A program made the position numbers. From NCBI RefSeq assembly GCF_029227855.1, contig NZ_CP074356.1: a stretch of 64,000 bases of DNA; one strand, written 5' to 3'. The DNA comes from Escherichia coli (GTDB taxonomy: Bacteria; Pseudomonadota; Gammaproteobacteria; Enterobacterales; Enterobacteriaceae). Numbering within the stretch: the stretch's first letter is position 1; each line of letters starts with the position of its first letter. Shown piece by piece: positions 7,236 to 10,200 of this stretch.

Positions 7236-10200
7236 TGATTGTTTTACCGCCTGATGGGCGAAGAGAAAGAACGAGTAAAAGGTCGGTTTAACCGGCCTTT
7301 TTATTTTGTGATATGTATGAAGTACTTTGGAAGTATAAATCCATAACTTGTCTCGATGTAGATATACTGCACAACTTGTTTACAGTATGAGCAAACAATA
7401 ATTATCATTAAAATTCTTCTTGACCGTTTTACTCCAACTCCCTATAGTAGCGCCCCGTTGCCACCCATGAGGTTTGGCAGCAAAACAATTTGGTGAGGTG
7501 TCCGAGTGGCTGAAGGAGCACGCCTGGAAAGTGTGTATACGGCAACGTATCGGGGGTTCGAATCCCCCCCTCACCGCCATATTCAAAGAAGAGCTCGTAC
7601 GAAAGTACGAGTTTTTTTTCGCATTTTATCTGCCTGTACGGCAGTGAACGGTATAAAAATCGAGTTTTTCTTTCGGTTGGCTTTCTAAGCTGCCTGTACG
7701 GCAGTGAACTCAAATACTACACGTTTAGTCCGTTATTAATAAAGCAAAACCATCTCATTTTCCTGCTACCACCCTTTTTTATCCTTACCTTCCCGCAGCA
7801 CTAATTATCAACAACTTACCATCATCATCAAAAAAAGGGTCTGAACCTCCTCCACCCCATAAATAAATATCCTCCGGCATAGCCGGAGGTTTTTCAAATG
7901 CGCCTATAAGGCTCTCTTACCAGCCGCGCCCTAACAGGCGCACACGATCTGACATTTGCATCCAACTTCGTTACTTACGGCCCGTAAACGGGCTGCCCGG
8001 ATAGGGAATCGATAACTGCTCTCCCATTTTATCCTCTTCAAGCTGGTGCTTTATGTAATCCTGTATCTTCGCCGTGTTCTTACCCACTGTATCGACGTAG
8101 TACCCTCTGCACCAGAACTCCCTGTTCCTGTATTTGAATTTCAAATCACCAAACTGCTCGTAAAGCATCAGACTGCTTTTCCCTTTCAGATATCCCATAA
8201 ACCCGGATACGCTCATTTTGGGCGGGATCTCCACAAGCATATGGATATGATCTGCACAGCATTCAGCTTCCAGAATCCGTACGCTTTTCCACTCACACAG
8301 CTTTCTCAAAATACTGCCTATTGCTCTACGCTTCTCTCTGTAGAACACCTGTCTTCGGTATTTTGGCGCAAAAACTATGTGATATTTACAGTTCCATCGG
8401 GTGTGCGCTAAGCTCTTTTCGTTCCCCATTGGGACCCCCTTTTGATTTCTTGTTTGACACTTGCAGTTGCCAGACCGCAAAGTGTTTTAACAAATCAAAA
8501 GGGGTTTTAATAACTGGCTCAAAGCTGAAAGCTTTCCGGAACCCCCAGCCTAGCTGGGGGTTTTCTGTGCACAAAAAAGTCCGTAACCTCTTTCGAGATT
8601 ACGGACTTCACCAACCTACCTGACAATCAGATTAATGCGCTGCTTCCGCCTTGTGCTTTTGTGCACTCTGGAATCCATAAGTCAGCTCATTTTTCTCTTT
8701 ATCCAGCGCAACCGTCACCTGACCGCCGTCCACCAGCGAACCAAACAACAGTTCGTTGGCGAGCGGTTTTTTCAGGTTGTCCTGGATGACACGCGCCATC
8801 GGACGTGCGCCCATTGCCCGGTCGTAACCTTTCTCGGCCAGCCAGTTACGCGCTTCCTGGCTCACTTCCAGAGAAACACCTTTCTGATCCAACTGAACCT
8901 GCAACTCGACGATGAATTTATCCACTACCTGATGGATCACTTCGGTGGAGAGATGATCGAACCAGATAATGTTGTCGAGACGGTTACGAAACTCCGGCGT
9001 AAAGATCTTCTTGATCTCTTCCATCGCATCGGTGCTGTTGTCCTGGTGGATAAGACCAATCGATTTACGCTCAGTTTCTCGTACCCCAGCGTTGGTGGTC
9101 ATCACCAATACCACGTTACGGAAGTCCGCTTTGCGTCCGTTGTTATCGGTCAGCGTACCGTTGTCCATCACCTGCAACAGAATATTGAACACGTCCGGGT
9201 GCGCTTTCTCGATTTCGTCCAGCAGCAGCACCGCATGTGGATGCTTGATGACCGCATCAGTCAGCAAACCGCCCTGATCAAAACCAACGTATCCCGGAGG
9301 CGCACCAATCAGACGGCTGACGGTATGGCGTTCCATATACTCGGACATATCAAAGCGCAGAAGCTCAATGCCCAACGCTTTCGAAAGCTGTACCGTCACC
9401 TCTGTTTTCCCGACCCCGGTAGGGCCTGCAAACAGGAACGAACCGACCGGTTTATGTTCGTGACCTAAACCTGCACGCGCCATCTTAATGGCTTCAGTCA
9501 GCGCCTCAATGGCTTTATCCTGACCGAAGACCAGCATTTTCAGGCGATCGCCGAGGTTTTTCAGGGTATCGCGGTCACTCTGCGAAACACTCTTCTCTGG
9601 AATGCGCGCAATACGGGCCACCACGGACTCAATATCCGCCACATTAACGGTTTTCTTGCGTTTGCTTACCGGCATCAGGCGTGCGCGAGCGCCCGCTTCG
9701 TCGATAACATCAATGGCTTTATCCGGCAGATGACGATCGTTAATGTATTTCACCGCCAGCTCTACCGCTGCACGCACCGCTTTTGCGGTATAACGCACGT
9801 CGTGGTGCGCTTCATACTTCGGTTTCAGGCCATTGATGATTTGAACAGTTTCTTCGATCGACGGTTCAGTAATATCAATTTTCTGGAAGCGACGCGCCAG
9901 AGCACGGTCTTTCTCGAAAATGTTGCTGAACTCCTGATAGGTTGTCGAACCAATTACGCGAATTTTACCGCTGGAGAGCAGCGGTTTGATCAGGTTAGCC
10001 GCATCGACCTGGCCACCAGAGGCTGCACCCGCACCGATAATGGTGTGGATCTCATCAATAAACAGGATGCTGTTAGTATCCTGCTCCAGCTGCTTGAGCA
10101 ACGCTTTAAAACGTTTTTCAAAGTCGCCGCGATATTTTGTGCCCGCTAACAGAGAACCGATATCGAGAGAGTAAATCGTACAGTCAGCCATCACTTCCGG

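What the first reader, a model, noticed from the sequence alone, without database searches (positions are those of the whole stretch)
7863..8570. IS200 inserted between serW and the clpA terminator, with regulatory RNA hairpins
The 152-aa Y1 transposase is essentially the Salmonella IS200 TnpA as I remember it. The element carries the expected features. First, a hairpin near its 5' end (8542..8560, CCCCCAGC-CTA-GCTGGGGG) flanked by A and T runs, a likely bidirectional terminator insulating tnpA from outside transcription. Second, a 13-bp stem (CCCCTTTTGATTT pairing with AAATCAAAAGGGG) that buries the tnpA Shine-Dalgarno. The insertion lies a few bp from the clpA terminator and about 280 bp from the serW tRNA. 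As recalled, K-12 has no IS here, so it is a strain marker. IS200 5' UTRs are also known sources of regulatory RNAs in Salmonella.
Basis: partly seen in the sequence, partly recalled or inferred. Interest (0 to 1): 0.45.

Follow-up and report, generated by a model that had tools for sequence, protein, structure and literature searches.

The report
Intact IS200C beside the clpA terminator
This is an ordinary, intact copy of the well-known tiny transposon IS200 (the E. coli type, IS200C), sitting directly behind the clpA transcription terminator at a site that is empty in K-12 and in nearly all other E. coli; it carries the regulatory RNA hairpins already described for Salmonella IS200.

Summary
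Window 7862-8572 (minus strand, 711 bp, ends ambiguous by 2 nt) is an intact IS200C.

- **Transposase:** tnpA (7971-8429) encodes a 152-aa Y1/HUH transposase. It matches Pfam Y1_Tnp (E=4e-38) and NCBIfam transpos_IS200, and is 145/152 identical to Salmonella IS200F TnpA.
- **Non-coding left end:** it matches Rfam STnc490 over the model's full length (144.6 bits).
- **Occupancy:** K-12 and two other empty sites lack the element. Only 7 of 5,426 complete E. coli genomes have IS200 against the clpA terminator.

Refinements:
- A right-end hairpin (7871-7889) was missed. It has the same architecture as the left-end "terminator" hairpin, so both are probably also the transposase-binding hairpins.
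- The element is inserted at the distal end of the clpA terminator's T-tract.

In all 35 independent IS200, IS200C and IS1541 sites I examined, from about 17 enterobacterial species, the left end directly follows a terminator-like hairpin plus T-rich tail. A 2025 preprint reports this tendency statistically.

Novelty: already known. Interest is low.

The parts
7862..8572 (-). Complete IS200C element, 711 bp. The 2-nt sliding ambiguity also allows 7863-8573 or 7864-8574.
   Evidence: Empty sites in K-12, APEC 102026 and TUM14771 read CCCCATAAAC-AAAAAGTCCG. The same element inserted at a second site (L008) defines the same insert.
7971..8429 (-). tnpA, a 152-aa Y1 (HUH) transposase. HUH is H61-I-H63 and the catalytic Tyr is Y125.
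   Evidence: Pfam Y1_Tnp E=4.4e-38. NCBIfam transpos_IS200 147.7 bits, cut-off 55. PDB relatives include IS608 TnpA 2a6m at 3.9e-19. Residues. Y125F is the catalytically dead mutant in PMC4513863.
8540..8562 (-). Left-end subterminal hairpin AACCCCCAGC-TAG-GCTGGGGGTT. This is the published bidirectional terminator (IS200 nt 12-34) and the probable TnpA-binding LE hairpin.
   Evidence: 10 perfect pairs (I12). RNA -18.7/-20.7 kcal/mol and ssDNA -11.7 kcal/mol. Invariant in 13 diverse copies. Role from PMC4513863 and PMC5435999.
8519..8533 (-). Small hairpin AAAGCUUUCAGCUUU near the tnpA transcription start (about IS nt 40).
   Evidence: Second helix of the Rfam STnc490 consensus. Present in the centroid fold. 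The start-site position comes from PMC4513863 and is inferred here.
8436..8504 (-). 5'UTR stem-loop that sequesters the Shine-Dalgarno AAGGGGGU (8441-8434); corresponds to IS200 nt 69-138.
   Evidence: I2. -32.1 kcal/mol, z=-5.5. Lower-stem pairs are invariant or change only UA to UG across 13 copies. A 20-fold translational repression was shown in Salmonella IS200 (PMC4513863, PMC5435999).
8421..8510 (+). [quoted passage not shown] It ends in a hairpin followed by GGGGUUUU.
   Evidence: Position transferred from the PMC4513863 description. Folds at -35.4 kcal/mol, z=-5.0. Candidate promoter TTTACA (8385-8390), 18-nt spacer, TAAGCT (8409-8414), read; the consensus scan did not call it. Expression not tested.
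7862..7900 (-). Right end: GAAAAA-CCTCCGGC-TAT-GCCGGAGG-ATATTTATT. The hairpin is at 7871-7889 and a 9-nt tail runs to the end of the element. It also looks like the tnpA terminator.
   Evidence: I6; RNA -15.9 kcal/mol, z=-4.7; DNA -10.0 kcal/mol, z=-5.0. Same 8-bp stem and 3-nt loop as the LE hairpin, with two compensated stem differences. Identical in Salmonella and Yersinia copies.
8573..8609 (-). Target site: the clpA intrinsic terminator (stem 8576-8609, T-tract 8573-8578). The element's left end starts immediately after the T-tract.
   Evidence: Fold -23.1 kcal/mol, z=-6.1. The clpA stop codon is at 8632. Empty-site comparison.

Best explanation
This is an intact copy of IS200C, the E. 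coli member of the IS200 group of the IS200/IS605 family.

**Transposition (inferred from the family).** The only protein is TnpA, a small Y1/HUH enzyme. In this family it moves one DNA strand, the tnpA-sense 'top' strand, by 'peel and paste'. It binds subterminal hairpins at both ends, cuts a fixed distance outside them, releases a single-stranded circle, and pastes it 3' of a short target on single-stranded DNA at the replication fork. No inverted repeats or target duplication result. Here the two hairpins are at 8542-8560 (left end) and 7871-7889 (right end). Each is preceded by an A-run, and the cut sites on both sides follow TT.

**Insertion site (shown).** The copy landed at the distal end of the T-tract of the clpA terminator. 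It is co-oriented with clpA, and its top strand lies on the lagging-strand template.

**Silencing of tnpA (anatomy shown; function transferred from Salmonella IS200).**
- The clpA terminator and then the left-end hairpin block read-through transcription.
- The 5'UTR stem-loop hides the ribosome-binding site.
- An antisense RNA (art200) covers the 5'UTR.

The processed 5'UTR may also act as a trans-acting sRNA. That activity is shown only in Salmonella.
For: **Identity**
- 100% identical to a region annotated IS200C in E. coli JNEC-KY178.
- Pfam Y1_Tnp E=4e-38 and NCBIfam transpos_IS200 at 147.7 bits.
- HUH motif at residues 61-63 and Y125.
- PDB relatives are IS608 and ISDra2 TnpA.
- TnpA is 145/152 identical to Salmonella IS200F and 143/152 to IS1541A. 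DNA identity is 92.4% and 88%.

**Regulatory anatomy**
- Rfam STnc490 matches at full length, 144.6 bits.
- Fold z-scores range from -4.7 to -5.5.
- Coordinates map onto the published nt 12-34 and 69-138 (PMC4513863).

**Insertion**
- K-12 and two other genomes are empty at this site, and there is no duplication beyond an ambiguous TT.
- The site is occupied in only 7 of 5,426 genomes.
- IS200C-like DNA is present in 2,590 of 5,426 genomes, with a median of 2 and a maximum of 35 places per genome.

**Orientation**
- The window is the reverse complement of K-12 at 0.925 Mb.
- The + strand has negative GC skew, so the tnpA-sense strand is the lagging-strand template. This matches what is reported for the family (PMC5027513).

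**Target rule**
- All 35 independent sites have a hairpin plus a T-rich tail of 6-10 nt directly 5' of the left end.
Against: Nothing contradicts the identification. The limits are as follows.
- No expression or transposition data exist for this copy or this strain. IS200 is described as nearly immobile (PMC4513863).
- On the sense strand the left-end hairpin is followed by only UU, so by sequence alone it is a weak terminator in the clpA-to-tnpA direction. Its roughly 85% efficiency is a Salmonella measurement (PMC5435999).
- No compensatory double changes support the 5'UTR stem in my 13-sequence alignment, because the region is almost invariant.
- The peel-and-paste biochemistry was established for IS608 and ISDra2, not for IS200 itself.
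- The ISfinder reference could not be consulted.
Confidence: 0.96

Rival explanations
1. The copy is a domesticated or immobile relic. Its relevant function would then be production of regulatory RNAs (art200 and the processed 5'tnpA sRNA) that act on host genes, not transposition.
For: In Salmonella the IS200 5'UTR is processed into sRNAs that regulate invF and other regulons, and IS200 is called essentially dormant (PMC5435999, PMC12594629). The 5' region is nearly invariant across 13 copies from many species. The Rfam match is full-length.
Against: The site is occupied in only 7 of 5,426 E. coli genomes. Two different IS200 variants (99% and 95.7% identical) sit at the same nucleotide, which implies recent independent insertions. 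Copy number varies from 1 to 35 between genomes. tnpA is intact, with its catalytic residues. The known targets (invF, SPI-1) are Salmonella genes.
Confidence: 0.2
2. The constant position behind terminators reflects only a T-run target plus purifying selection. The A-rich guide next to the LE hairpin would pair with TTTT, and insertions anywhere else would be lost. The target hairpin would play no mechanistic part.
For: The 4-5 nt 5' of both IS hairpins are A-runs. In IS608 the 4 nt 5' of the LE hairpin foot pair with the target tetranucleotide (PMC5027513; sequence). Every left flank ends in TT. A position just after a terminator is a harmless place to insert.
Against: Under a strict hairpin definition, 25 of 32 sites qualify. 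That compares with 18 of 71 T6+ run ends outside long ORFs and 26 of 260 overall (binomial p=6e-10). With one mismatch or G-U pairs allowed, 32 of 32 sites qualify, but no control was run with that relaxed definition. The serW-side insertion uses the back of a terminator hairpin with a CTTCTT tail and no T-run. Insertions sit at the distal end of the T-run rather than at any T4 within it.
Confidence: 0.45
3. The shared occupancy of the clpA site in several genomes comes from one old insertion spread by homologous recombination of the flanking region, not from a hot spot hit repeatedly.
For: Five of the occupied genomes have 98-100% identical flanks and IS. Their junctions differ only by 1-2 nt within homopolymer-like runs.
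Against: ECSC054 (L007) carries a different IS200 variant, 95.7% identical with 4 amino-acid differences, at the identical nucleotide. It sits next to a divergent left flank and retains the ancestral G in the target. A further genome has yet another variant at the neighbouring serW terminator.
Confidence: 0.15

Closest known systems
Salmonella enterica IS200 (PGAP name IS200F), the founding member
   Same: Same size class (707-711 bp). It has a single 152-aa TnpA that is 145/152 identical, with 92.4% DNA identity. The LE hairpin, 5'UTR stem-loop, SD AAGGGGGU and RE hairpin plus tail are identical (PMC4513863).
   Different: The first 8 nt of the left end differ (GTGCACAG versus GTCTATGG). There are 7 amino-acid substitutions. 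The host is E. coli, where neither the trans-acting sRNA targets nor the sRNA's own expression have been shown.
Yersinia IS1541A/B
   Same: 88% DNA identity over the full length and TnpA 143/152 identical. The hairpins are the same, and the copy I examined also lies behind a terminator-like hairpin plus T-run.
   Different: Its genomic copy number is reported to be much higher in Y. pestis (PMC5435999). It has small sequence differences in the UTR upper stem.
IS608 (Helicobacter pylori) and ISDra2, the biochemically characterised IS200/IS605 members
   Same: The same Y1/HUH TnpA fold family (PDB 2a6m E=3.9e-19, 2xm3 E=1.9e-16). They also have subterminal hairpins, no inverted repeats, no target duplication, insertion 3' of a short target, and a lagging-strand-template bias (PMC5027513).
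   Different: They carry tnpB and use specific tetra- or pentanucleotide targets (TTAC, TTGAT). IS200C has no tnpB, perfect rather than imperfect hairpins, and a T-rich target that lies behind a host hairpin.
Group IIC introns (as a target-choice analogy only)
   Same: They are typically found just downstream of transcription-terminator motifs, meaning an inverted repeat followed by Ts (PMC1702495 abstract, seen).
   Different: They are an unrelated kind of element: a ribozyme retroelement that recognises the stem-loop through RNA, not a DNA transposon.

Membership tests
IS200 group of the IS200/IS605 family | Encodes a Y1 (HUH plus single catalytic Tyr) transposase of about 150 aa | tested here: met
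   Pfam PF01797 E=4.4e-38. NCBIfam NF033573 at 147.7 bits against a cut-off of 55. H61-I-H63 and Y125.
IS200 group of the IS200/IS605 family | tnpA is the only gene (no tnpB or iscB); the element is about 0.7 kb | tested here: met
   The insert is 711 bp. The only ORF with a family match is tnpA.
IS200 group of the IS200/IS605 family | No terminal inverted repeats; subterminal hairpins at both ends | tested here: met
   The termini GTGCAC... and ...TTTATT are not inverted repeats. Hairpins lie at 8542-8560 and 7871-7889, both stable as ssDNA with z=-3.6 and -5.0.
IS200 group of the IS200/IS605 family | No target-site duplication | tested here: met
   Empty and occupied sites differ by exactly the insert. 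The only shared bases are an ambiguous TT.
IS200 group of the IS200/IS605 family | Nucleotide identity to reference IS200 elements across the whole element, including non-coding ends | tested here: met
   92.4% to IS200F over 99% of the length and 88% to IS1541 over 100%. The identical protein WP_000526135.1 is named IS200C by PGAP. The ISfinder entry itself could not be queried.
IS200 group of the IS200/IS605 family | Top strand on the lagging-strand template (family-wide orientation bias) | tested here: met
   The window is the reverse complement of K-12 at 0.925 Mb, on the right replichore. GC skew of the + strand is negative. The family bias is described in PMC5027513.
IS200 group of the IS200/IS605 family | Single-strand 'peel and paste' transposition catalysed by TnpA | not testable with these tools
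   Requires biochemistry or genetics. It is inferred from homology to IS608 and ISDra2 TnpA.
STnc490 / art200 and 5'tnpA regulatory RNAs of IS200 | Sequence and structure match to the Rfam family RF01405 | tested here: met
   144.6 bits against a gathering score of 56, E=5e-31, model positions 1-124 of 124. The match is on the tnpA-sense strand.
STnc490 / art200 and 5'tnpA regulatory RNAs of IS200 | The RNAs are expressed, bind Hfq and repress tnpA or host targets | not testable with these tools
   Shown for Salmonella IS200, partly using E. coli as host (PMC4513863, PMC5435999, PMC12594629). No transcript data exist for this strain.
REP-associated tyrosine transposase (RAYT) | Scores above the RAYT family cut-off and is flanked by REP sequences | tested here: not met
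   NF047646 scores 32.2 bits against a cut-off of 80. The flanks are a terminator and a CRISPR remnant, not REPs.

The most novel reading that the evidence does not exclude
IS200-group elements may choose their targets by recognising intrinsic terminators as structural mimics of their own right end. Both consist of an A-run, a GC-rich hairpin and a 6-10-nt T-rich tail ending in TT. On this reading the host hairpin, not just a T-run, would be part of the target signal. That would be a hairpin-guided 'safe-harbour' strategy for a DNA transposon, analogous to that of group IIC introns. All 35 sites examined, in E. coli, Salmonella, Yersinia and about 14 other enterobacterial species, fit the pattern. 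The literature I could search documents it only as a statistical enrichment, not as a mechanism. Older IS200 and IS1541 papers were not available, so it may already have been described.
Probability: 0.2. Interest if true: 0.5.

Novelty: already known. Interest (0 to 1): 0.17.

Why it matters
For the window itself this is routine annotation.
- It is an intact IS200C that serves as a rare strain or lineage marker at the serW-clpA spacer, occupied in 7 of 5,426 complete genomes.
- It leaves the clpA terminator's stem and six Ts of the T-tract in place.
- It adds a copy of a locus that produces Hfq-binding RNAs in Salmonella.

The wider point, if it holds up, is that IS200-type elements park themselves with single-nucleotide precision behind host terminators. 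This would explain three things: why they are so harmless and so silent, why unrelated variants hit the same nucleotide repeatedly, and why IS200/IS605 shows the strongest 'terminator upstream' signal in genome-wide surveys.

Tried and rejected
- **Other copies in the window:** I looked for a second IS copy and found none.
- **pSLT as a Salmonella reference:** the first 50 kb of LT2 pSLT have no blastn match, and the annotated 'IS200-like' ORF there is unrelated. I used Salmonella plasmid copies L042 and L044 instead.
- **Covariation in the 5'UTR stem:** 13 diverse copies gave no double compensatory change because the region is too conserved, so covariation neither supports nor refutes the stem.
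- **Promoter scan:** the consensus scan did not call the tnpA or art200 promoters. The art200 -10 candidate TAAGCT matches only 3 of 6 positions, so promoter positions are inferred from the literature.
- **A closer empty site:** I searched for an empty site identical to the window's flanks, to explain the window's TTTTTT junction. None exists among complete genomes. The closest relatives all carry the IS, and the nearest empty sites are 98% identical.
- **Literature on terminator targeting:** I found only a statistical report (bioRxiv 10.1101/2025.07.22.666184). Bisercic & Ochman 1993 and Cornelius 2009 are not held.
- **RAYT membership:** rejected, since the score is below the cut-off.
- **A failed call:** a mistaken protein-mode call on the whole element returned an error.
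Full report
**Context.** The window is E. coli chromosome in the order cydC, aat, infA, serW (tRNA-Ser GGA, 7492-7579, +), the element, then clpA, clpS and cspD on the minus strand. Window 7580-8640 is 100% identical to E. coli JNEC-KY178. In that genome PGAP annotates the ORF as 'IS200/IS605-like element IS200C family transposase'. The window runs as the reverse complement of K-12 at about 0.925 Mb.

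**Checking the observation.**
- The ORF at 7971-8429 (-) encodes 152 aa.
- The left-end hairpin CCCCCAGC-CTA-GCTGGGGG lies at 8542-8560 and extends to 10 perfect pairs at 8540-8562.
- The long stem has arms at 8436-8451 and 8489-8504. Its 3' arm contains the GGGG of the Shine-Dalgarno AAGGGGGU (8441-8434), 4 nt upstream of the ATG at 8429.
- These structures are well beyond chance. The 175-nt 5' region folds with z=-4.9, and 0 of 200 shuffles fold as well. The SD stem-loop alone has z=-5.5.
- serW ends 282 nt from the element, and the clpA terminator abuts it.

**Exact ends.**
- K-12, APEC 102026 and TUM14771 have the empty site ...CCCCATAAAC AAAAAGTCCG....
- A genome with the same element at a different site (OW967178, next to the serW terminator) defines the same insert.
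- The inserted DNA is 711 bp.
- A TT is shared between flank and element, so the ends can be written as 7862-8572, 7863-8573 or 7864-8574.
- I prefer 7862-8572. In that register both cleavage sites follow TT, and the flank before the left end ends in TT in all but one of the copies examined.
- There is no target duplication and there are no terminal inverted repeats.

**What it is.**
- TnpA matches Pfam Y1_Tnp (E=4.4e-38) and NCBIfam transpos_IS200 (147.7 bits against a cut-off of 55).
- It falls below the RAYT cut-off.
- Its solved relatives are the IS608 and ISDra2 transposases and archaeal homologues.
- It has the HUH motif (H61-I-H63) and Y125. Y125 is the residue mutated to make catalytically dead IS200 TnpA (PMC4513863).
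- It is 145/152 identical to Salmonella IS200F TnpA and 143/152 to Yersinia IS1541A.
- DNA identity over the whole element is 92.4% to IS200F and 88% to IS1541.
- The non-coding left end matches Rfam RF01405 (STnc490) over all 124 model positions at 144.6 bits.
- IS200C-like DNA occurs in 2,590 of 5,426 complete E. coli genomes, with a median of 2 and a maximum of 35 places.

**Regulatory anatomy.** I map the element onto the published Salmonella numbering, in which nt 1 corresponds to window 8573. All three published features land on the structures found here (PMC4513863):

| Published feature | IS200 nt | Window coordinates |
|---|---|---|
| Terminator | 12-34 | 8562-8540 |
| tnpA transcription start | about 40 | about 8534 |
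| SD-sequestering stem-loop | 69-138 | 8505-8436 |

[quoted passage not shown] It would therefore run from about 8421 to 8510 on the + strand and end in a hairpin plus GGGGUUUU.
- A candidate art200 promoter (TTTACA, 18-nt spacer, TAAGCT) sits upstream, but it is weak by consensus and was not called by the scan.
- Function is transferred from experiments on Salmonella IS200: about 85% termination of impinging transcripts, 20-fold translational repression by the stem, antisense and Hfq repression, and a processed 5'UTR sRNA acting on invF and other regulons (PMC4513863, PMC5435999, PMC12594629).
- None of this was measured for this copy.
- Across 13 diverse copies the stems are invariant or change only UA to UG. 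Covariation is therefore uninformative.

- The right end carries a hairpin, CCTCCGGC-TAT-GCCGGAGG (7871-7889), followed by the 9-nt tail ATATTTATT.
- It has the same architecture as the left-end hairpin: an 8-bp stem and a 3-nt TAG/TAT loop. Two stem positions differ, and both differences are compensated.
- Both hairpins are preceded by an A-run (GAAAA and GAAAAA).
- In IS608 the transposase binds such subterminal hairpins, and the 4 nt 5' of the LE hairpin foot pair with the target tetranucleotide (PMC5027513).
- By analogy, the 'terminator' hairpin is probably also the TnpA recognition site, and the A-run is a candidate guide for T-rich cleavage sites. This is inference.

**Where it sits.**
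- On the tnpA-sense strand the junction reads GAGGTTACGGAC-TTTTTT|GTGCACAG. The element therefore begins right at the end of the T-tract of the clpA intrinsic terminator (stem -23.1 kcal/mol, z=-6.1).
- The element is co-oriented with clpA.
- The terminator keeps its stem and six Ts, so I would expect clpA termination to be preserved, though this was not measured. tnpA then lies behind two hairpins in series.
- The + strand of the window has negative GC skew, and the locus lies on the right replichore. The top strand of the IS is therefore on the lagging-strand template, as is typical of the family (PMC5027513).

**Population picture.**
- Seven of 5,426 genomes have IS200 against the clpA terminator, and one more has it against the serW terminator.
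- ECSC054 carries a different IS200 variant (95.7% identical, 4 amino-acid differences) at the identical nucleotide, with a divergent left flank. This argues for at least two independent hits.
- CFIAFB20140388 has one IS whose right end adjoins the serW site and whose left end adjoins the clpA terminator, with the DNA between them lost. Recombination between two copies at the two hot spots would produce this.
- The junction in the window (TTTTTT|) is 2 nt shorter than in its closest relatives (TTTTTATT|). Those relatives have A where every empty site I examined, and ECSC054, have G. I could not explain this.

**A general target rule.** I collected independent sites from three sources:
- other E. 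coli loci;
- a scan of species-representative genomes with a 30-nt left-end pattern, which gave 26 loci in Citrobacter, Brenneria, Kluyvera, Entomohabitans, Mangrovibacter, Kosakonia, Pluralibacter, Raoultella and Yersinia pekkanenii;
- Salmonella IS200F and Yersinia IS1541A copies.

In all 35 sites the left end is directly preceded by a GC-rich hairpin and a T-rich tail of 6-10 nt (mode 7). In all but one the tail ends in TT.
- Under a strict definition (perfect stem), 25 of 32 sites qualify.
- That compares with 26 of 260 ends of T6+ runs in the same DNA, and 18 of 71 such ends outside long ORFs (binomial p=6e-10).
- Selection against harmful insertions is not fully excluded as the cause.
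[quoted passage not shown] The tendency is therefore known statistically.
- I found no mechanistic account in the searchable literature. Older IS200 and IS1541 papers were not available.

**Verdict.** The only feature with some residual interest is the single-nucleotide-precise association with terminators, together with the resemblance of such terminators to the element's own right end.

Noticed in passing
window 7622-7709: An orphan type I-F CRISPR remnant lies between serW and the IS. One full repeat, GTTCACTGCCGTACAGGCAGCTTAGAAA, is at 7682-7709(-) (Rfam CRISPR-DR4, 50.1 bits). A degenerate repeat is at 7622-7649 (29.7 bits). The single 32-nt spacer differs from K-12's spacer at the same locus.
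   Followed up: partly
window 8573-8609, plus L005-L014, L016-L041 and L042-L044: In 35 of 35 independent IS200, IS200C and IS1541 sites from about 17 species, the left end directly follows a terminator-like hairpin plus a 6-10-nt T-rich tail, which ends in TT in all but one. Under the strict definition, 25 of 32 qualify against 18 of 71 T6+ run ends outside ORFs.
   Followed up: yes
L008 (OW967178) about 296-1006; L009 (CFIAFB20140388) about 597-1307: There is a second IS200 hot spot in the same spacer, at the back of the serW terminator hairpin with a CTTCTT tail. One genome has a single IS bridging the serW site and the clpA terminator, with the spacer DNA between them deleted. This looks like recombination between two IS copies.
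   Followed up: partly
window 8573-8578 compared with L005, L006, L009 and L007: The LE-flank junction varies between occupied genomes: TTTTTT| in the window, TTTTTATT| in MEW, 98224 and CFIAFB20140388, and TTTTTGTT| in ECSC054. Every empty site I examined has G at that position. One genome also has an extra T on the RE side. The origin of the G-to-A change and the 2-nt loss is unexplained.
   Followed up: partly
L005 44-180, L006 46-180, L008 159-295: PGAP annotates an 'RtT sRNA' downstream of, or in place of, serW in related genomes. In L008 and L009 that stretch ends with a second copy of the serW 3' end (AATCCCCCCCTCACCGCCA). This suggests rtT-like tRNA-3'-end repeats in some lineages. The window itself gave no RtT hit.
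   Followed up: no
window 8439-8562 (-): The Rfam STnc490 model matches the tnpA-sense strand and includes the LE hairpin. Published art200 (formerly STnc490) is the antisense transcript. The family model therefore seems to represent the sense 5' region (PMC4513863).
   Followed up: no
plasmid hits H102-H107, H156-H185 and H112-H118; E. coli hits H28-H29: Many E. coli, Salmonella and Klebsiella conjugative plasmids carry the same truncated IS200C fragment (element nt 1-339 or 4-500), which is unannotated. pO157-type plasmids carry a 141-bp right-end fragment at 92% identity.
   Followed up: no
L016 (Pluralibacter gergoviae), L040 (Yersinia pekkanenii), L023/L024 (Kluyvera): Solo left-end fragments occur behind terminators; similarity stops after about 75 nt. 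The Kluyvera copies have lost one G in the G-run at tnpA codons 2-3, a likely frameshift.
   Followed up: no
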